From Escherichia coli (GTDB lineage Bacteria; Pseudomonadota; Gammaproteobacteria; Enterobacterales; Enterobacteriaceae): a DNA stretch of 64,000 nucleotides. Position 1 is the first letter of the stretch. Each line of letters begins with the position of its first letter. A program made the position numbers and the translations under genes. The stretch lies in NCBI RefSeq assembly GCF_046105845.1, contig NZ_CP151004.1; one strand, 5' to 3'. Shown one piece after another: positions 1-30,200 of this stretch. The notes below the pieces were generated by a model. That model was not told where the DNA came from. It searched no databases and saw only the letters and a program-made list of their open reading frames with translations.

Positions 1-500
1 TGGTTTACACCACCGGATGCGGTGTTCACGCCTTTACTTACGATCCTTCGCTCGGCGTTTTCTGCCTGTGCCAGGAACGGATGCGCTTCCCGGAGAAAGG
101 CAAAACCTACTCCATCAACGAAGGAAACTACATTAAGTTTCCGAACGGGGTGAAGAAATACATTAAATTCTGCCAGGAAGAAGATAAGTCCACCAATCGC
201 CCGTATACCTCGCGTTATATCGGCTCACTGGTTGCGGATTTCCACCGTAACCTGCTGAAAGGTGGGATTTATCTCTACCCAAGCACCGCCAGCCACCCGG
301 ACGGTAAACTGCGTTTACTGTATGAGTGCAACCCGATGGCATTCCTGGCGGAACAAGCGGGCGGTAAAGCGAGCGATGGCAAAGAGCGTATTCTGGATAT
401 CATCCCGGAAACCCTGCACCAGCGCCGTTCGTTCTTTGTCGGCAACGACCATATGGTTGAAGATGTCGAACGCTTTATCCGTGAGTTCCCGGACGCGTAA
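1..500 (+). CDS. fbp: fructose-1,6-bisphosphatase class 1, C-terminal part (5' end outside window)
   Basis: Track ORF 81..500 translation (…[21 protein letters not shown]…FIREFPDA) matches FBPase C-terminus; frame stays open to window start. Confidence 0.9.
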
Positions 501-532
501 TCCCCTGCGCCTCTCCACACGGAGAGGCGTTT

Positions 533-1528
533 TTATCGCTGCGCAATGTTGACTCTTGTCACTGGCGAACTCTGACGATTCTCCCACAGCACTGTTAATC
601 CACGCTGTAATGCTATAAAAATAAACAACAAAATGCCGATGGCGATTTTCGTCCACCAGGAACTCAGCGTACCGTCAAAGTTGATATATGTCTGAATCAG
701 TCCCTGAATCGCCACACCAAATAGCGTTCCCAGCACCGTTCCTACCCCACCACTTAACAACGTACCGCCAATCACCACCGACGCGATGGCGTCCAGTTCC
801 ACACCTACGCCCGCCAGCGCATATCCGGCCTGGGTATAAATCGAGAAGACAATCCCCGCCAGCGTTGCCAGTCCGGTGGAAAGCATATAAATGCGAATAG
901 TGGTGCTGCGCGTGGAAATCCCCATCAGGTTCGCCGACGTTGTGTTGCCGCCAATGGCGTACACCTGATTACCAAAACGCGTACGATGCGCGAGGAATAT
1001 GCCGATAACCACCACCGCCAGCATCAGCAGCCCCATCGCACTTAAACGACCGCCGCCAGGGATTTTCCATGCAAGGCTTGAGAGCGTGTCATAAACAGGA
1101 TGATTTATCGGGATCGACTCTTCCGAAACGAGATAGCTGACGCCACGCAAAAAGAACATTCCTGCCAGAGTAATGATAAACGCCGGGATCTTCAGGGCGT
1201 CGATCAAAAGCCCCATAAATGCGCCAAAGGCACAGCCCATCACCAGCACCAGTGGAAACGCCAGCAGCGGCGAGAGGCCGAAATCGCCAATCACTTTTGC
1301 CAGAAACACGCCGGTAAAGGCGATCACCGAACCGACGGAGAGATCGATCCCACCGGAGAGGATCACAAAGGTCATGCCAACAGCGATGATCCCCAGAAAA
1401 GCGTTATCGGTCAGGATATTGCAGATCACTCTTGTGGAAGCAAAACCGGGAAACTGGGTCAGGCAGTAGAAATAACCCAGCACAAAGACGCCGATGGTGA
1501 TCATCAGTGGCAAATTACGTTTTATCAC
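533..1528 (-). CDS. yjfF: ABC transporter permease (galactofuranose-type sugar transporter)
   Basis: 331-aa polytopic membrane ORF; adjacent to ytfT/ytfR/ytfQ in conserved order. Confidence 0.85.
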   Translation of the reverse strand: MIKRNLPLMITIGVFVLGYFYCLTQFPGFASTRVICNILTDNAFLGIIAVGMTFVILSGGIDLSVGSVIAFTGVFLAKVIGDFGLSPLLAFPLVLVMGCAFGAFMGLLIDALKIPAFIITLAGMFFLRGVSYLVSEESIPINHPVYDTLSSLAWKIPGGGRLSAMGLLMLAVVVIGIFLAHRTRFGNQVYAIGGNTTSANLMGISTRSTTIRIYMLSTGLATLAGIVFSIYTQAGYALAGVGVELDAIASVVIGGTLLSGGVGTVLGTLFGVAIQGLIQTYINFDGTLSSWWTKIAIGILLFIFIALQRGLTVLWENRQSSPVTRVNIAQR

Positions 1529-2537
1529 GGCTACGCACTCCTTTAATCAGACTGATAAAGCGTTGCGACTGGACAATCAGCACGCAAAGCACCACCACCG
1601 CTTTCACCACCTGGTTCATCTCCGGCGGAAAGCCCGAAAGCAAAATTCCGGTGTTCATCCCCTGAATAATCAGCGCCCCCACCACCGAAAGCAGTAGGTT
1701 AAAACGTCCGCCCATCAGCGAACCACCGCCAATCACCACCGCGAGAATGGCGTCCAGCTCCAGCCATAATCCGGCGTTGTTGGCATCGGCACCGCGAATA
1801 TCCGCCGCCACGATAATGCCCGCAATCGCCGCACACAGCCCGCTCAACACGTAGGTGAGCATGACGATGATTCGCGTGTTGACTCCGGCATTTTTTGCCG
1901 CCCGAATGTTGATACCAACGGCTTCGATAAACATCCCCAGCGCCGTTTTGCGGGTCAACAGCCAGAACAGGAGAAGCGTCAGCACCGCGATAATGACCGG
2001 CGTTGGCAGGAACAATAGCGATCCGCTGCCAAACCATGAGAGATCCGGCGAGTTAAACGTGACGATCTGTCCGGAGGTGATCAGTTGCGCCACGCCGCGC
2101 CCGGCGACCATCAGGATCAGGGTGGCAACAAACGGCTGAATTTTGAGGATCGCTACCAGTATGCCGTTCCACAATCCCGCCAGGATGCCAGTGCCCAGGG
2201 AGCTTAACAAAACAATCGGCAGGCTGAATCCAGCGACCGTCATCGCAGCCGTTGTGGCTCCGGCGATAGCCATCACCGCCCCCACGGAGAGATCAATCCC
2301 ACCAGTGGCGATCACCAGCGTCATACCAATCGCCAACAGCGCAACGGGGGCGGCGCGATTAAGAATGTCGATAGGGCTACCGAACAAACGCCCATCCTGA
2401 AGCACCACCTGCCAGAAATGCGGGGCTACCAGGCTGTCGACCAGCAGCACCAGCAATAGTGCTACCAGCTGCGGCATTCCTGTTGGCCAGCGAAAGCGCC
2501 TTTTCGGCGGCGTAGTGTCCGGGAGAGATTGAGGCAT
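1515..2537 (-). CDS. ytfT: ABC transporter permease
   Basis: Track ORF 1515..2561; start trimmed to internal Met (MPQSLPDTTPP…) to give about 340 aa; overlaps yjfF start. Confidence 0.8.
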   Translation of the reverse strand: MPQSLPDTTPPKRRFRWPTGMPQLVALLLVLLVDSLVAPHFWQVVLQDGRLFGSPIDILNRAAPVALLAIGMTLVIATGGIDLSVGAVMAIAGATTAAMTVAGFSLPIVLLSSLGTGILAGLWNGILVAILKIQPFVATLILMVAGRGVAQLITSGQIVTFNSPDLSWFGSGSLLFLPTPVIIAVLTLLLFWLLTRKTALGMFIEAVGINIRAAKNAGVNTRIIVMLTYVLSGLCAAIAGIIVAADIRGADANNAGLWLELDAILAVVIGGGSLMGGRFNLLLSVVGALIIQGMNTGILLSGFPPEMNQVVKAVVVLCVLIVQSQRFISLIKGVRSRDKT

Positions 2538-2550
2538 CACACTGTTCTCC

Positions 2551-4053
2551 TTACGCCGCAATGGCGTTCATGATCGCCGGAACGGAAAGCTCTGCCAGCG
2601 GGATCTCCGCTACCTGTTTGCGATCGCGCATGATAATCACCCGGTCGGCATAGCCCACCAGCTCTTCCAGCTCGGAGGAGATCACCAGCAGCGCCAGTCC
2701 ATCGGCGCACAGCGTTTCAATCAGGCGGATGATCTCGGCGTGGGCACCAACATCAATTCCGCGCGTTGGCTCGTCGAGGATCAGAAATTGCGGTCGGGTC
2801 AGTAGCCAACGTGAAAGCAACACTTTTTGCTGATTGCCGCCGGAGAGAAATTCAATCGGTTGTTCGGTTGAAGGTGTGCGAATGCCAAGCTGGCGGATAA
2901 AGCGTTGGGCAATCTCTTGCTGTTCTTTGCGGGAAATCGGTCGTAGCCAGCCGCGCTGGGCCTGGAGAGCGAGGATGATATTTTCCCGCACCGAGGCGGC
3001 GGCGATGATGCCATCGGTTTTCCTGTCTTCCGGGCAGAAGCCGATGCCCAGTACCGAAGCCTGATGTGGCGATCGCAGGGTTTGCGGTTTGCCTTTGATC
3101 AACGCCGTGCCGCTATCAGCTGGTTTGATACCGAAGATCACTTCGGCAGTTTCGGTACGTCCTGATCCCAGCAAGCCTGCCAGACCGACGATCTCGCCGG
3201 GGCGTACTTCGAGATCAAACGGTGCGATCGTTCCTTTTTTGCCGTAATTTTTGAACGCGGCAACGGGTTTGTCGCTCAGCAATGTTCGTCCGGCACGCTG
3301 TAGCGCGTGGGTGTCCAGCTCGCGCCCCAGCATCATTTTTACCAGTTCGATCTGCGGTAGCTCGCGGGTTTCCCGACAGCCTACGAAACTGCCGTTGCGT
3401 AAGACGGTGATCCGATCGCTGACCTGATAGACCTGATCGAGAAAGTGAGTAACGAAGATCAGGCTGACGCCGCGATCGCGCAACTGACGCATCAGGCCAA
3501 ACAGTAACTCTACTTCCTGAGTGTCGAGGCTGGCGGTGGGTTCATCGAGGATCAGCACTTTGGCGGAGAGATCGATGGCCCGGCAAATGGCGACGATTTG
3601 CTGCATCGCGACTGAAAAGCGGTTGAGCGGTTCGCGCACGTCGAGGGAGAAACCGTAAGATGCCATCAGTTCGGTGGCGCGCTTTTCCATCTCTTTACGG
3701 CGTAGAAGGCCGAAACGTTTGGGTTCGCGACCTATGAATAGATTATCAGCGACCGACATATTGGGTAGCAGGTTGACTTCCTGATAGACGGTGCCGATGC
3801 CGAGTTGTTGTGCATGGGCGGTATTTTTCGGTGAAATAGTCTGGCCTTCCAGCCAGATGGTGCCACGATCGGCGTGGTAGACACCGGTTAATGCTTTGAT
3901 TAGCGTTGATTTTCCCGCCCCGTTTTCACCGAGCAGCGCCATGATTTCACCACGGCGCAGGCTGAAATCAACGTTGTCTAACGCTTTGACACCGGGGAAA
4001 AATTTACTTAATCCTTCGGTGCGGAGGATTTCCTGGTGTTGGTTAGTATTCAT
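2551..4053 (-). CDS. ytfR: ABC transporter ATP-binding protein with duplicated ATPase domains
   Basis: Two Walker A motifs (GENGAGKS, GLLGSGRT) and LSGG signature; start trimmed to MNTNQHQEILRTEGL giving 500 aa. Confidence 0.88.
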   Translation of the reverse strand: MNTNQHQEILRTEGLSKFFPGVKALDNVDFSLRRGEIMALLGENGAGKSTLIKALTGVYHADRGTIWLEGQTISPKNTAHAQQLGIGTVYQEVNLLPNMSVADNLFIGREPKRFGLLRRKEMEKRATELMASYGFSLDVREPLNRFSVAMQQIVAICRAIDLSAKVLILDEPTASLDTQEVELLFGLMRQLRDRGVSLIFVTHFLDQVYQVSDRITVLRNGSFVGCRETRELPQIELVKMMLGRELDTHALQRAGRTLLSDKPVAAFKNYGKKGTIAPFDLEVRPGEIVGLAGLLGSGRTETAEVIFGIKPADSGTALIKGKPQTLRSPHQASVLGIGFCPEDRKTDGIIAAASVRENIILALQAQRGWLRPISRKEQQEIAQRFIRQLGIRTPSTEQPIEFLSGGNQQKVLLSRWLLTRPQFLILDEPTRGIDVGAHAEIIRLIETLCADGLALLVISSELEELVGYADRVIIMRDRKQVAEIPLAELSVPAIMNAIAA

Positions 4054-26361: not shown

Positions 26362-27000
26362 ATGCCCGGGCGCTTTGAACTAAAACCAACCCTGGAGAAA
26401 GTCTGGCACGCGCCGGACAATTTTCTCTTCATGGACCCGCTGCCGCCGATGCATCGTCGGGGGATCATTATTGCCGCCATTGTATTGGTGGTCGGATTTC
26501 TGCTTCCATCTGATGATACGCCCAACGCGCCGGTGGTGACGCGTGAAGCGCAGTTAGATATTCAGTCGCAATCACAACCACCGACAGAAGAACAGCTGCG
26601 GGCGCAATTAGTCACGCCACAAAATGATCCTGATCAGGTGGCTCCGGTCGCTCCAGAACCAATACAGGAAGGCCAGCCAGAAGAGCAGCCGCACCCCCCC
26701 CAAACGCAACCATTCCAGCCAGATAGCGGAATTGATAATCAATGGCGCTCTTACCGTGTCGAACCCGGTAAAACGATGGCACAGCTGTTCCGCGACCACG
26801 GGCTGCCCGCTACCGATGTCTATGCAATGGCGCAGGTAGAAGGCGCGGGTAAGCCGCTGAGTAATTTGCAAAACGGGCAGATGGTGAAAATCCGCCAGAA
26901 CGCCAGCGGCGTGGTGACGGGCTTAACCATTGATACGGGGAATAATCAACAGGTCCTGTTTACCCGTCAGCCGGATGGCAGTTTTATTCGCGCGCGGTAG
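26362..27000 (+). CDS. ytfB: OapA/LysM-like cell-division-associated protein
   Basis: Start trimmed to [21 protein letters not shown]… (212 aa); single TM then periplasmic domain. Confidence 0.85.
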
Positions 27001-27134
27001 ATGAAGGGTCAACCAGAAGCCAGCTAAGGAGCGTCTCTTTGATGACCTTACGTCTGGCTTCCAGTGCCTGGGGTGAAACCATACTGATATGTTGACATCC
27101 TCCACGCCCTGAAGGACGTGGATCCCTGCTACGT

Positions 27135-28343
27135 TCAGGCTGTCGCCTGAATCATTTCGGTGGGTTCCTGCTTCAACGAGCGGCCTGACTGCACCATCTC
27201 TCCACAGGCAAGAACGGCGTGCCCCGCCGCTAAAATGTTACGAGCGCCGTTTACATCGGCGTTCGCTGTATATCCACATGCCTGGCATCTGAATTGACTT
27301 TGTGACAGGCGATTTTCTTTCGCTGTATGACCACAGCACGCGCAACGCTGGCTTGTGTACGCTGGCGGAACAGCAAGCACCTGACCGCCACGCCAGAGCT
27401 GCTTGTACTCAAGCTGGCGGCGCATTTCATACCAGCCCTGATCCTGTATCGAACGGTTTAAACCTGATTTTGCCCGGACATTGCGCCCCGGCTGGCTGAC
27501 CGTACCCGCTGCTGACTTTGACATGTTGCTGACCTTCAAATCCTCAATGACTATCATTGCGTGGTTTTTGCTGACGGTCGTTGTGACTTTGTGAAGGTAG
27601 TCCCTGCGGATATTTGCGATACAGGAATGCAGTCGCTGTATTTTGCGTTTCTGCTTCTGCCAGTTGTTGCTGAATTTGACCTTGCGGCTTAACTGTCGCT
27701 GAAGTCTCGCCAGCGTCTTCTGGTTTTTCTGAAAACTGTTTACAGGCCCAAAGACTGTGCCATCTGACAGCGTGGCGAGTTTAGCCACGCCAGCATCCAG
27801 CCCGACCATTGATGCTGAAGGGTGAACCGGAGTTGATACTTCATTTTCAGTCTGAATACTGATGTACCACTTACCGCAGGACTGGCTGACAGTGACATTT
27901 TTCACAACACCCGTGACCTGACGGCTATTCCGGTAGCGCATACAGCCAAGTTTCGGCAGAAAAATACGGCTGTTTTCCTGATCGAGCTTAACGCCCTGCG
28001 GGTAGCGGAATGCATCATTCTGTCCCCGCTTTTTGAATCGGGGAAAAGCAGCCCGCTTCTGGAAGAAGTTTTTGTAAGCCCGCTCAAGGTCTTTCAGTGA
28101 CTGTTGCAATGGCTGTGACGGGGCATCTTTAAGCCATTGCGTTTCAGTGGCATTTTTCCACTCAACCAGCCAGGAAGCCATTTTCCCGTAAGGGATGTAT
28201 TTATTACCGGCCTCATGATTCTCATTCTGAAGCGCCAGAGCACGATTGAAAACGAAACGACATGCGCCTGCGAAGCGCCTCATTTCACACTCCTGTTGAC
28301 CACCTGGTCTTAACTGGAATTTAAATGCCTGTAATCGTTTCAC
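27135..28343 (-). CDS. tnpB: TnpB (OrfB_IS605) RuvC-like RNA-guided endonuclease
   Basis: 402-aa ORF with RuvC-I (GLDAGV), RuvC-II (IVIEDL), zinc finger (CACCGH…CQACG) and RuvC-III ([10 protein letters not shown]) motifs. Confidence 0.9.
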
Positions 28344-28350
28344 AGGTCAA

Positions 28351-28782
28351 ATGATACTTTGGTCTATGAAAAAAGAAACCGATATCCGGCGTGGAAAGCA
28401 TTGTGTTTTCCTGATGCATGTTCACCTGGTCTTTGTCACCAAATACCGACGCCAGATTTTTGACCATGACGCGAAAGAAAAACTACGCACTTACTTTTCA
28501 AAGGTATGTGCTGATTTTGAAGCTGAACTGGTTGAAATGGATGGCGAACCAGATCACGTCCATTTGTTAATTAACTATCCTCCCAAACTGGCGATATCCA
28601 GTCTGGTAAACAGCCTCAAAGGCGTATCGAGTAGGTGACTGCGACGAGATCGACCAGATATTGCAGTCAGGTATTACTACAAAGGCGTTTTGTGGAGTCC
28701 TGGCTATTTTGCCAGTAGCTGCGGAGGTGCGCCAATATCCGCCATCCGTCAATACATTGAACAACAGCAAACACCTGGTTAG
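28351..28782 (+). pseudogene. tnpA: IS200-like Y1 HUH transposase TnpA interrupted by in-frame TGA
   Basis: HUH motif (PDHVHLLINYPPK) before a TGA at 28636..28638; the same frame continues (LRRDRPDIAVRYYYKGVLWSPGYFASSCGGAPISAIRQYIEQQQTPG) to TAG at 28780..28782. Confidence 0.75.
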
Positions 28783-28797
28783 GTGGAAAACCGCGCC

Positions 28798-29055
28798 TTA
28801 TATCCCCGCCCTGAAGGACGGGGTTTTACGGCGCACTGGATAAACCAGGCCAAGCGTATGCTGGTTGATCAAATAATATCCCCCAAGCGCAGCAATATTA
28901 ATATTCACCTGCAATGGGTCGCTATCTGCCTTAAAAATATTGTGTTTCTTCCCTTCATCCAATAATTCCATTAAATGCAAGTGCGCATGATTAATTTCTA
29001 AGAGACGCTGTGATTTTGCATAATGCACACCTTTACTTTGGTTTTCACTATGCAC
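28798..29055 (-). pseudogene. ytfA: ytfA-like remnant ORF; 3' end reads into the IS left-end hairpin
   Basis: 85-aa GTG-start ORF; last 7-8 codons (…TPSFRAGI) are encoded by the IS terminal hairpin; upstream in-frame TAA near 29182. Confidence 0.4.
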
Positions 29056-29405
29056 AATTTTTAAAAACCTGGGATTAGCAATATAATAACCCCAGGTAAA
29101 ATCGATGATTTTTTCAATGGATTTTTGTGGCTGGTTAACCTGCTGATTAACGAACGCACCGATACCGACAGCGTAGAATAATTACATACCGCACAACAAG
29201 AATGTATGGTGTAAGGCGTTGTCAGTCATCTCCCTCCCTGGATGCATCGTTATATCCGTGATGAGCGATTTTTGATATTAATATCTTTCACCATCCGCTA
29301 TCTTCACTACTTCAGAAAACAAACTTATTTTTATTAATATCGATTATTTATTCTGTGCACATTCAGCTGCGATATTTATAAAAAAATTAAACAGGCAAAA
29401 ATACA

Positions 29406-30200
29406 ATGACATTACCAACCACTATTTATTCATTTCCTGCATATTCACCCCGTTTTTCGTCCACCGACAAACCAGTAAAATTAAAATTTCATCAATACGC
29501 ACGCGCTACATTACTTTCAAATCGTGGAAGAGATCATAATTGCGATGGCAGACATACTGTTGAGATCCACAAACTAGATCTCTCAGACTGGCAAGCATTC
29601 AATAAGTTAGCGACGAGGTGTAATGCTTACGATGGAATAACAATGAATGGTGATAATTCTTTTGGATGGAACCATGAAGCTACATTAGATAATATTCACG
29701 CCCAGAAATACAATAAAGCTTACGCGGGTGCGAGGTTAACCGCAGAACTGAAATATTTATTGCAAGATGTCGAATCCTTCGAACCCAACAGTAAATACAC
29801 AATACACGAGGTTGTTTTGGGACCTGGTTATACTACTCCAGACTATACCGGCCAATCGATAGGATACGTTGTAACCCTTCCTGCCCAAATGCCTAATTGC
29901 TGGTCATCTGAACTACCAACAATCGATCTTTATATCGACCAACTTCGCACTGTTACAGGCGTTTCTAATTCCCTCGGATTCATCATTGCTGCATTGCTAA
30001 ACGCGTATTCTGATTTACCCCATGATTTGAAAATTGGTCTGCATTCCTTATCAAGTTCAGCAGCAATCTACTCGGGTTTGGGTTTCGAGCGAGTGCCGCA
30101 GGAGCGAGACATCAGTTGCGCTCGTATGTATCTAACGCCAGCAAACCATCCTGACTTATGGACACAAGAGAATGGTGAATGGATCTACTTGCGAAACTAA
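29406..30200 (+). CDS. yjfZ: uncharacterised protein YjfZ
   Basis: 264-aa ORF in AT-rich DNA; no recognisable domain. Confidence 0.75.
   Translation: MTLPTTIYSFPAYSPRFSSTDKPVKLKFHQYARATLLSNRGRDHNCDGRHTVEIHKLDLSDWQAFNKLATRCNAYDGITMNGDNSFGWNHEATLDNIHAQKYNKAYAGARLTAELKYLLQDVESFEPNSKYTIHEVVLGPGYTTPDYTGQSIGYVVTLPAQMPNCWSSELPTIDLYIDQLRTVTGVSNSLGFIIAALLNAYSDLPHDLKIGLHSLSSSAAIYSGLGFERVPQERDISCARMYLTPANHPDLWTQENGEWIYLRN

What the first reader, a model, noticed from the sequence alone, without database searches (positions are those of the whole stretch)
28351..28782. tnpA carries a single in-frame TGA upstream of the catalytic tyrosine region
The TnpA frame is open from 28351, contains the HUH motif (DHVHLL), hits TGA at 28636..28638, then continues in the same frame for 47 more codons (…RYYYKGVLWSPGYFASSCGGAPISAIRQYIEQQQTPG) to TAG at 28780. 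The post-TGA segment holds the conserved Tyr-containing region, so a truncated product would lack the nucleophile. This is either recent nonsense inactivation (for example TGG to TGA), leaving a TnpB-only domesticated element, or a low-level read-through arrangement limiting transposase dosage.
Basis: seen in the sequence. Interest (0 to 1): 0.5.

Follow-up and report, generated by a model that had tools for sequence, protein, structure and literature searches.

The report
Stop-codon-broken IS609 transposase gene
The transposase gene of an IS609 insertion sequence in this E. coli chromosome is cut short by a TTA-to-TGA change that removes its catalytic tyrosine; the same broken allele sits in about a third of IS609 copies across E. 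coli, including K-12, so this is an ordinary, already annotated decaying transposase beside an intact TnpB nuclease gene.

Summary
tnpA (28351-28782, +) has one in-frame TGA at 28636-28638. Homology to IS200/IS605 transposases runs across it, and the catalytic tyrosine (Y135, 28753-28755) lies downstream. The element is an IS609 copy (27092-28839) inserted without a scar in a TetR/AcrR pseudogene between ytfB and yjfZ, with an intact tnpB/insQ.

The TGA replaces TTA (Leu96), not TGG. It is not private to this copy. Exact-match counts in 5,426 complete E. coli genomes give 3,369 TGA and 6,301 TTA copies. TGA is polymorphic at this locus (246 vs 1,494 genomes) and at the K-12 ydcO-ydcL locus (1,690 vs 1,554). 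It also occurs at two further loci. RefSeq flags these copies as "internal stop" pseudogenes.

A programmed read-through arrangement is not supported:
- The sense codon is the majority and outgroup state.
- TGA copies show pN/pS near 1.
- The K-12 TGA copy never transposed in mutation-accumulation lines.
- Other copies are broken by unrelated lesions.

Many other SNPs are shared across loci in the same way, so allele shuffling among copies explains the spread. The window's copy is itself a mosaic of two alleles.

Verdict: an ordinary nonsense pseudogene in a non-autonomous IS; low interest.

The parts
27092..28839 (-). Complete IS609-like IS200/IS605 element (1,748 bp). Strand is given in the tnpB sense: LE at the high-coordinate end, RE at the low-coordinate end.
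   Evidence: Joining window 27020-27091 to 28840-28910 gives one contiguous 143-nt match (the empty site) in 3,240 complete E. coli genomes. Sequence shared between copies at different loci starts and ends at these positions.
28351..28782 (+). tnpA (Y1 HUH transposase) pseudogene: 143 codons with one internal stop.
   Evidence: RefSeq annotates intact tnpA at the same coordinates in strains 1190 and 88-3493.
28636..28638 (+). Premature TGA at codon 96, replacing TTA (Leu96). The T-to-G change is at 28637 and the next base is C.
   Evidence: Alignment A1. Allele counts.
28555..28563 (+). HUH motif (H69-V70-H71), upstream of the stop.
   Evidence: It aligns to DHIHIL of IS608 TnpA.
28753..28755 (+). 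Codon of the catalytic tyrosine Y135 (RQYIEQQ), downstream of the stop and therefore absent from the 95-aa product.
   Evidence: It aligns to KQYIENQ of IS608 TnpA chains 2vhg and 2a6m. That this Tyr is the nucleophile (Y127 of IS608) is established knowledge.
27135..28343 (-). tnpB/insQ: intact 402-aa RNA-guided endonuclease gene, divergent from tnpA. The two start codons are 7 nt apart.
   Evidence: ORF. NCBIfam NF040570 at 385.4 bits (cut-off 100), matching over nearly the whole profile.
28804..28823 (+). LE subterminal hairpin CCCCG-CCCTGAAGGA-CGGGG.
   Evidence: Read from the sequence. It has the same loop as the RE hairpin.
27102..27121 (+). RE subterminal hairpin CCACG-CCCTGAAGGA-CGTGG.
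   Evidence: Read from the sequence.
27079..27262 (-). Probable omega-RNA region overlapping the tnpB 3' end and RE and running into the flank. The inferred guide is the complement of about 27072-27091.
   Evidence: Sub-threshold Rfam hits to families linked to TnpB 3' ends: HgcC 24.6 bits, sot0042 19 bits, RAGATH-18 29.5 bits. This is inference, not shown.
28840..28843 (-). Target/TAM tetranucleotide TTAT (ATAA on the + strand), immediately 5' of LE. It belongs to the host site, not to the IS.
   Evidence: It is conserved next to LE at four different loci and is retained in the empty site.
26984..27091 (-). 3' fragment of the TetR/AcrR-family gene interrupted by the IS.
   Evidence: RefSeq annotation of the orthologous locus, mapped from L001.
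28819..29130 (-). Middle fragment of the same TetR/AcrR pseudogene, as RefSeq draws it. Only 28840 onward is host DNA.
   Evidence: RefSeq annotation. Boundary.

Best explanation
This is a loss-of-function nonsense allele (TTA Leu96 to TGA) of the transposase gene of an IS609 copy. Translation stops after residue 95. The product keeps the HUH motif but lacks the C-terminal third, which carries conserved core sequence and the helix with the nucleophile Tyr135. This copy therefore makes no active transposase, apart from the trace of full-length L96W protein that incidental UGA read-through would give. The element is non-autonomous. Its LE/RE hairpins and its tnpB gene with the probable omega-RNA are intact. 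It could move only if an intact TnpA is supplied from another copy. TnpB could still cut an emptied site (inferred from the IS605-family model). The TGA is not a fresh private mutation. It is a common allele that segregates among IS609 copies at several chromosomal loci in E. coli. It most likely reached this copy by recombination or gene conversion with a TGA-bearing allele. A recurrent de novo T-to-G change is the less likely alternative.
For: Shown:
- The stop is at codon 96, with family homology on both sides of it.
- Tyr135 aligns to the catalytic Tyr of IS608 TnpA.
- TTA is the state in the nearest allele at the same locus, in the annotated IS609 copy and in three outgroup copies.
- Exact 30-mer counts give 3,369 TGA places in 2,725 genomes and 6,301 TTA places in 3,879 genomes.
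- Allele-plus-flank queries give TGA 246 / TTA 1,494 genomes at this locus and TGA 1,690 / TTA 1,554 at ydcO-ydcL.
- TGA also occurs at yedK-ybcM and yeaQ-yeaR.
- RefSeq flags every TGA copy fetched as an 'internal stop' pseudogene, with an intact 1,209-nt tnpB beside it.

Signs of decay:
- The K-12 copy also lost its natural stop and differs from IS609 by 7 non-synonymous and 1 synonymous change.
- pN/pS is about 1.0 in TGA copies, 0.6 in TTA copies and 0.5 in tnpB, on small counts.
- Other copies are broken by a 5-bp deletion, a 14-bp deletion or frameshifts.
- IS609 in K-12 gave 0 of 758 new insertions in mutation-accumulation lines (PMC5009759).

Origin by allele exchange:
- The window's IS matches the TGA-class allele of strain 7/2 over 27748-28366 and the TTA allele of strain 1190 over 28397-29600, except at 28637.
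- Both differences from strain 1190 in tnpA (28366, 28637) are alleles common elsewhere.
- Many other SNPs are polymorphic at 3-5 loci.

Literature: most IS605-family elements carry tnpB without a working tnpA.
Against: - The TGA is followed by C, and TGA is the leakiest stop codon in E. coli reporters. Some full-length protein is therefore probably made, and its activity is untested.
- The marker 7 nt upstream (A at 28630) is of the TTA-class haplotype. A conversion tract would need one end inside a 6-nt interval.
- The A280+G287 combination occurs in only 1 of 5,426 genomes, and there at another locus. This fits an independent mutation as well as it fits a short repair patch.
- The selection statistics rest on few sites and partly on metagenome contigs, which can be chimeric between copies.
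- No reads are available to verify the base call.
Confidence: 0.85

Rival explanations
1. Programmed or selected low-level read-through: the UGA-C is kept as a throttle, so that only a few percent of ribosomes make full-length TnpA (Trp at position 96). This would limit transposase dosage.
For: TGA followed by C is a weak termination context (own knowledge: Poole, Brown and Tate 1995). Premature TGA codons in E. coli reporters were read through more than TAG or TAA, up to a few percent at 37 C (PMC11126739). The allele is frequent (about 35% of copies) and found at several loci. No second in-frame stop lies between codons 97 and 143 in the TGA copies sampled.
Against: The sense codon TTA is the majority state, the outgroup state, and the state in the copies annotated as intact IS609. 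TGA copies show pN/pS near 1 on both sides of the stop, and the K-12 copy has further damage. The K-12 TGA copy never transposed in mutation-accumulation lines. The multi-locus spread is shared by many neutral SNPs. Rfam found no recoding or SECIS-like element in the region at E up to 1.
Confidence: 0.05
2. Recurrent de novo mutation at a hot spot: T-to-G at 28637 turns an imperfect inverted repeat into a perfect one (TGACTGC 28636-42 and GCAGTCA 28663-69). Template switching at this quasi-palindrome would then create the same stop repeatedly in different copies, including this one.
For: The substitution lengthens the perfect arm from 4 to 7 bp. It stabilises the DNA hairpin from -4.2 to -6.9 kcal/mol. 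The window carries TGA on a haplotype (A at 28630) otherwise almost never linked to it.
Against: 4.3% of all possible substitutions in tnpA, and 3 of the 60 possible nonsense substitutions, would create an equally good repeat, so the coincidence is weak. A 7-bp arm with a 20-nt spacer is short for known quasi-palindrome hot spots (own knowledge). General mosaicism of the copies explains the multi-locus sharing without a hot spot.
Confidence: 0.12
3. Base-call or assembly error: the true sequence is TTA and the gene is intact.
For: The nearest allele (strain 1190) has T here. No complete genome carries exactly this haplotype at this locus. Reads cannot be inspected.
Against: The G is the one alternative allele that already segregates in thousands of copies at this exact position, including 246 genomes at this locus. 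A random error would rarely reproduce it. The only other difference from strain 1190 in tnpA (28366) is also a common allele.
Confidence: 0.02
4. The truncated 95-residue TnpA fragment is itself useful, for example as a dominant-negative partner or end-binding repressor of full-length TnpA made by other copies. That would explain why this null allele is so common.
For: TnpA works as a dimer whose active sites are assembled in trans (established for IS608, own knowledge). The fragment keeps the HUH motif. The allele reaches 52% at the ydcL locus.
Against: The truncation removes conserved core sequence (VLWSPGYFASS) that aligns within the solved folds, so a stable fragment is doubtful. pN/pS in codons 1-95 of TGA copies is about 1.0, against 0.6 in TTA copies, so there is no sign of constraint on the fragment. 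Frequency alone is explained by age plus allele shuffling.
Confidence: 0.03

Closest known systems
IS609 of E. coli (IS200/IS605 family), as in strain 88-3493 and O157:H7, where RefSeq names the product 'IS200/IS605-like element IS609 family transposase'
   Same: Same element at the same chromosomal site (between ytfB and yjfZ, inside the TetR/AcrR pseudogene). Same divergent tnpA/tnpB layout. 98.2% identity over the 551-nt tnpA region.
   Different: The reference copy has TTA (Leu96) and an intact 143-aa TnpA. The window copy has TGA.
The IS609 copy of E. coli K-12 (ydcO-ydcL locus; insQ plus a tnpA pseudogene)
   Same: Identical TGA at the same codon. RefSeq annotates it 'internal stop'. tnpB/insQ is intact. 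It did not transpose in mutation-accumulation lines.
   Different: It sits at a different locus on a different haplotype. It also lost the natural stop (TAG to CAG) and carries six amino-acid changes. The window copy keeps TAG and differs from an intact allele by only two bases.
IS608 (H. pylori) and ISDra2 (D. radiodurans) TnpA, the structurally and mechanistically characterised Y1 HUH transposases
   Same: Significant sequence matches over the whole protein (E 5e-20 and 2e-17). The HUH motif and the C-terminal Y-I-E-x-Q tyrosine align. The element has subterminal hairpins, inserts 3' of a fixed tetranucleotide and makes no target duplication.
   Different: These are distant relatives. The gene order differs: IS608 has tnpA and tnpB in the same direction, whereas here they are divergent as in IS605. 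The target here is TTAT.
Non-autonomous tnpB-only IS605-family elements (Meers et al. 2023, bioRxiv 10.1101/2023.03.14.532601)
   Same: Intact tnpB, probable omega-RNA and intact ends with no working cis transposase. Such elements are expected to be mobilised in trans and retained by TnpB homing.
   Different: Here tnpA is still present, one base away from intact, rather than deleted. TnpB activity and the guide were not tested.
Programmed recoding in mobile-element and translation genes (-1 frameshifting in IS1/IS3 transposases; the UGA-C site of prfB)
   Same: An in-frame UGA followed by C lies inside a transposase gene, and the catalytic part is encoded downstream.
   Different: In those systems the recoding site is conserved across the family and has stimulatory signals. 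Here the stop is a minority allele absent from intact and outgroup copies, with no sign of selection on the downstream part.

Membership tests
IS200/IS605 family TnpA (Y1 HUH transposase) | Profile match above the curated cut-off | tested here: met
   NF033573: 149.9 bits against a cut-off of 55, profile positions 2-126 of 126, spanning the stop.
IS200/IS605 family TnpA (Y1 HUH transposase) | HUH metal-binding motif and a single C-terminal catalytic tyrosine | tested here: met
   H69-V70-H71 and Y135 align to the corresponding residues of IS608, ISDra2 and Sulfolobus TnpA. In this copy the two are separated by the stop.
IS200/IS605 family TnpA (Y1 HUH transposase) | Uninterrupted reading frame giving an active enzyme | tested here: not met
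   TGA at codon 96. RefSeq calls copies with the same allele pseudogenes.
IS200/IS605 family insertion sequence | Subterminal hairpins instead of terminal inverted repeats; insertion 3' of a fixed short sequence; no target-site duplication; scarless empty site | tested here: met
   Hairpins at 27102-27121 and 28804-28823. TTAT is conserved 5' of LE at four loci. The predicted empty site is found as one contiguous match in 3,240 genomes.
IS200/IS605 family insertion sequence | Accessory tnpB with RuvC/zinc-finger domains and a 3' omega-RNA | tested here: inconclusive
   tnpB matches NF040570 at 385.4 bits over nearly the whole profile. The RNA is supported only by sub-threshold Rfam hits to HgcC, sot0042 and RAGATH-18.
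IS609 (named element) | High nucleotide identity to annotated IS609 copies over the element | tested here: met
   98.0-98.2% identity over 551 nt to copies that RefSeq labels IS609, at the same locus. The ISfinder reference sequence itself was not available.
Programmed stop-codon read-through gene | Stop codon conserved at the site across functional homologues | tested here: not met
   About 65% of E. coli copies, the intact annotated copies and three outgroup copies have TTA.
Programmed stop-codon read-through gene | Purifying selection on the region downstream of the stop in stop-bearing copies | tested here: inconclusive
   pN/pS is 1.08 (7 non-synonymous, 2 synonymous) for codons 97-143 in TGA copies. 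The counts are too small to be decisive, but there is no sign of constraint.
Programmed stop-codon read-through gene | Leaky stop context or stimulatory RNA element | tested here: inconclusive
   UGA followed by C is present. Rfam found no recoding element. A modest hairpin includes the stop itself.
Programmed stop-codon read-through gene | Full-length product demonstrated | not testable with these tools
   This needs a reporter fusion or mass spectrometry.

The most novel reading that the evidence does not exclude
The Leu96 TGA allele is not just a decaying null. It may be favoured, either because biased repair or gene conversion (T:A to G:C) drives it through the IS609 copies of a genome, or because it silences transposition while keeping TnpB and the ends. 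Residual UGA-C read-through or the 95-aa fragment would then tune IS609 activity. That would make it a population-wide, recombination-spread off or low switch of an IS.
Probability: 0.06. Interest if true: 0.5.

Novelty: already known. Interest (0 to 1): 0.15.

Why it matters
For annotation, this tnpA should be called a pseudogene and the IS609 copy non-autonomous, while tnpB/insQ stays a candidate active RNA-guided nuclease. More broadly, it is a clean example of how IS605-family elements lose the transposase while keeping TnpB. It also shows a single null allele shared by IS copies at different chromosomal sites, which is evidence of sequence exchange among dispersed copies. Neither point is new in kind.

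Tried and rejected
- TGG-to-TGA origin: rejected. The codon is TTA in all sense copies.
- Private recent mutation or sequencing error: unlikely, because the same base change is present in 3,369 copies.
- Selenocysteine or another recoding signal: Rfam found nothing at E up to 1 in 26800-29100, and the ancestral residue is Leu, not Cys.
- Quasi-palindrome hot spot: the repeat is real but only weakly unusual. 4.3% of substitutions would do the same.
- A second IS609 copy in the window as conversion donor: none found.
- Simple two-parent recombinant origin: the window is a mosaic of 7/2-like and 1190-like alleles, but the TGA sits as an isolated marker inside the 1190-like part, so one crossover does not explain it.
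- Cross-species dating of the allele: the exact-pattern scan of species representatives found only one other Escherichia species (three TTA copies), which is too little to date it.
- Promoter and terminator scan of the element: nothing informative.
- Literature on insQ/TnpB in E. coli: no relevant study in the held library.

Full report
**Observation.** The region 28351-28782 on the + strand translates to 95 codons, a TGA at 28636-28638, 47 further sense codons and a TAG at 28780-28782. The HUH motif (H69-V70-H71, 28555-28563) lies before the stop. With X at codon 96, the protein matches the NCBIfam IS200/IS605 transposase model NF033573 at 149.9 bits (cut-off 55). The match covers residues 13-138 and the whole profile, so the homology runs through the stop and the downstream frame is real coding sequence. 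Alignment to solved TnpA structures (IS608 2vhg/2a6m, ISDra2 2xm3, Sulfolobus 2ec2/2f4f) places the nucleophile at Y135 in RQYIEQQ (28753-28755). It also shows a hydrophobic residue (Ile or Leu) at the position of codon 96. The catalytic Tyr is not in the RYYYKG run, but both lie after the stop.

**What the element is.** The window is E. coli chromosome, with gene order fklB, ytfB, the IS, yjfZ, rplI, rpsR, priB, rpsF.
- tnpA is divergent from an intact 402-aa tnpB/insQ (27135-28343, minus strand; NF040570 at 385.4 bits). The two start codons are only 7 nt apart.
- RefSeq annotates the same arrangement at the same site in other strains. In strain 88-3493 the transposase is named IS609.
- The boundaries were inferred from copies at different loci and then tested. 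Window 27020-27091 joined directly to 28840-28910 is one contiguous 143-nt match in 3,240 of 5,426 complete E. coli genomes.
- The IS is therefore 27092-28839 (1,748 bp). It was inserted without target duplication 3' of TTAT (minus strand, 28840-28843) inside a TetR/AcrR-family pseudogene.
- Both ends carry a subterminal hairpin with the same loop, at 27102-27121 and 28804-28823.
- Sub-threshold Rfam hits to HgcC, sot0042 and RAGATH-18 at the tnpB 3' end fit an omega-RNA but do not prove one.

**Which codon the TGA replaces.** The nearest sequence is strain 1190, at the same locus and with an intact annotated tnpA. It differs from the window's tnpA at two bases only: 28366 (V6M) and 28637. It has TTA (Leu96), as does the IS609 copy of strain 88-3493. 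Three copies in another Escherichia species (MOD1-EC7003) all have TTA as well. The change is TTA to TGA, a T-to-G transversion, not TGG to TGA.

**The allele is common and multi-locus.** The K-12 copy (C600 derivative, ydcO-ydcL locus) has the identical TGA on a different haplotype. RefSeq annotates it as a pseudogene with an internal stop. I counted alleles with 30-nt queries that megablast can only match exactly:

| Where | TGA | TTA |
|---|---|---|
| All copies (places / genomes) | 3,369 / 2,725 | 6,301 / 3,879 |
| ytfB locus (genomes) | 246 | 1,494 |
| ydcL locus (genomes) | 1,690 | 1,554 |
| Other loci, by subtraction (places) | about 1,430 | about 3,250 |

The per-locus counts came from queries made of the allele 30-mer plus 81 nt of locus-specific flank. 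Fetched examples add two more loci with TGA: yedK-ybcM (E2863) and yeaQ-yeaR (JL05). Of the 123 loci then held (120 metagenome contigs matching the pattern plus three RefSeq copies), 48 had TGA and 75 TTA. The G at 28637 is therefore not a plausible random base-call error, although the reads cannot be checked.

**Is the stop functional or just damage?** Several lines point to damage.
- The sense codon is the majority, the outgroup state, and the state in the copies annotated as intact.
- The K-12 TGA copy has also lost its natural stop. It differs from IS609 by seven non-synonymous changes and one synonymous change.
- Across 83 gap-free copies, pN/pS is about 1.0 on both sides of the stop in TGA copies. 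It is about 0.6 in codons 1-95 of TTA copies and about 0.5 in tnpB. Counts are small, for example 7 non-synonymous to 2 synonymous downstream.
- tnpA is broken in other copies by unrelated lesions: a 5-bp deletion at 28462-28466, a 14-bp deletion after 28722, and single-base frameshifts.
- In mutation-accumulation lines of K-12, whose single IS609 copy carries this allele, IS609 gave 0 of 758 new insertions (PMC5009759).
- tnpB is a full 402-aa ORF next to 23 of 33 TGA copies and 30 of 41 TTA copies, so its integrity does not depend on the neighbouring tnpA. It is annotated intact in all 12 RefSeq copies fetched. That sample was chosen partly by allele.
- This is the usual state of IS605-family elements, most of which carry tnpB without a working tnpA and depend on TnpA in trans (Meers et al.).

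Some incidental read-through is expected. [quoted passage not shown] UGA followed by C is a weak context (own knowledge). Nothing indicates that this leakage is a selected arrangement.

**How the allele came to be in this copy.** Over 6.5 kb the window differs from strain 1190 at 75 positions, but at only two between 28170 and 29214. A six-way comparison shows that the window's IS is a mosaic.
- Over 27748-28366 it follows the allele of strain 7/2, a TGA-class allele at this locus, at 12 informative sites.
- Over 28397 to about 29600 it follows the strain 1190 allele, except at 28637.

Both differences from strain 1190 in tnpA are alleles that are common in other copies. Many other common SNPs are polymorphic at 3-5 of the 5 best-sampled loci. 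The same patchwork is seen in complete genomes, for example a block at 28389-28452 shared by copies at ytfB, ydcL and yeaQ. Exchange of sequence among IS609 copies and alleles is therefore general, and the TGA is not exceptional in being shared across loci. Recombination or gene conversion is the most likely source.

There are two caveats. The 1190-type marker at 28630 lies only 7 nt from the stop. The A280+G287 combination occurs in just one of 5,426 genomes, and there at another locus. An independent T-to-G mutation therefore cannot be excluded. The change does perfect a 7-bp inverted repeat (28636-42 and 28663-69; hairpin -6.9 against -4.2 kcal/mol). However, 4.3% of all substitutions in the gene would do as much, so the hot-spot idea has weak support.

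**Mechanism.**
- *Shown:* the sequence encodes a TnpA truncated after residue 95, lacking Tyr135 and conserved core sequence. The ends and tnpB are intact. The site is a scarless IS200/IS605-type insertion.
- *Inferred from the IS608/ISDra2 and TnpB literature:* the copy cannot excise or insert by itself and could be mobilised by TnpA from another copy. Its TnpB/omega-RNA would recognise TTAT plus the flank CATATCAGTATGG... in an emptied site.

**Comparison and novelty.** This is IS609 with the same internal stop that RefSeq already flags in thousands of E. coli genomes, including K-12. It meets the family criteria for an IS200/IS605 element, but it fails the criterion of an intact transposase. 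It fails the main criterion for programmed read-through, conservation of the stop. It is already known in kind and in detail. The only mildly notable point is the population picture: one null allele at about 35% frequency, spread over several loci by sequence exchange.

**Verdict.** Interest is low.

Noticed in passing
window 28780-28782; related loci L003, L125-L132 and metagenome loci: The natural tnpA stop is itself polymorphic. The window, strain 1190 and the annotated IS609 have TAG. Most E. coli copies have CAG, so the frame runs through the LE hairpin into host DNA (about 25 extra codons at ydcL, about 60 at the ytfB locus). TAG/CAG is polymorphic at three or more loci, and two of three outgroup copies have TAG.
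   Followed up: partly
window 28344-28350: The divergent tnpB (GTG at 28343) and tnpA (ATG at 28351) start codons are only 7 nt apart, so each gene's promoter must lie inside the other's coding sequence. The consensus scan found no convincing promoter.
   Followed up: partly
window 27092-28839 and the empty site: This IS609 insertion is a presence/absence polymorphism in E. coli. About 3,240 complete genomes have the uninterrupted TetR/AcrR-family sequence and about 1,740 have the IS at exactly this TTAT. This could reflect scarless excision or TnpB-assisted homing.
   Followed up: partly
window 27079-27262 (minus strand): Sub-threshold Rfam hits to HgcC, sot0042 and RAGATH-18 stack at the tnpB 3' end and RE, as expected for an omega-RNA. 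A weaker sot0042 hit also lies over the LE (28803-28907).
   Followed up: no
window 28636-28669: With TGA the sequence forms a perfect 7-bp inverted repeat (TGACTGC ... GCAGTCA, 20-nt spacer). With TTA the repeat is imperfect. This could be a template-switch signature, but it is statistically weak.
   Followed up: yes
window 27748-29600 compared with L001 and L132: The window's IS and right flank are a mosaic of two alleles found at this locus in other strains: 7/2-like over 27748-28366 and 1190-like over 28397 to about 29600. There are only 2 differences from strain 1190 in about 1 kb, against about 1.3% divergence outside.
   Followed up: yes
window 26694-26698 (ytfB): Three clustered C-for-A differences (26694, 26695, 26698) in the Pro/Gln-rich part of ytfB separate the window from all five compared strains.
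   Followed up: no
L126 and L130 (ydcL locus, strains E2865 and E2863); metagenome loci L060, L075, L081, L105, L108: A different tnpA lesion, a 5-bp deletion at window-equivalent 28462-28466, occurs on TTA copies. In the sample it is confined to the ydcO-ydcL locus, unlike the multi-locus TGA.
   Followed up: partly
metagenome loci L051, L054, L057, L078, L107, L109, L110, L114: A divergent subgroup of copies has a 14-bp deletion after 28722 and a rearranged LE with a 37-nt insertion. It probably corresponds to the hits of about 94.6% identity and 77% coverage next to a helix-turn-helix gene.
   Followed up: no
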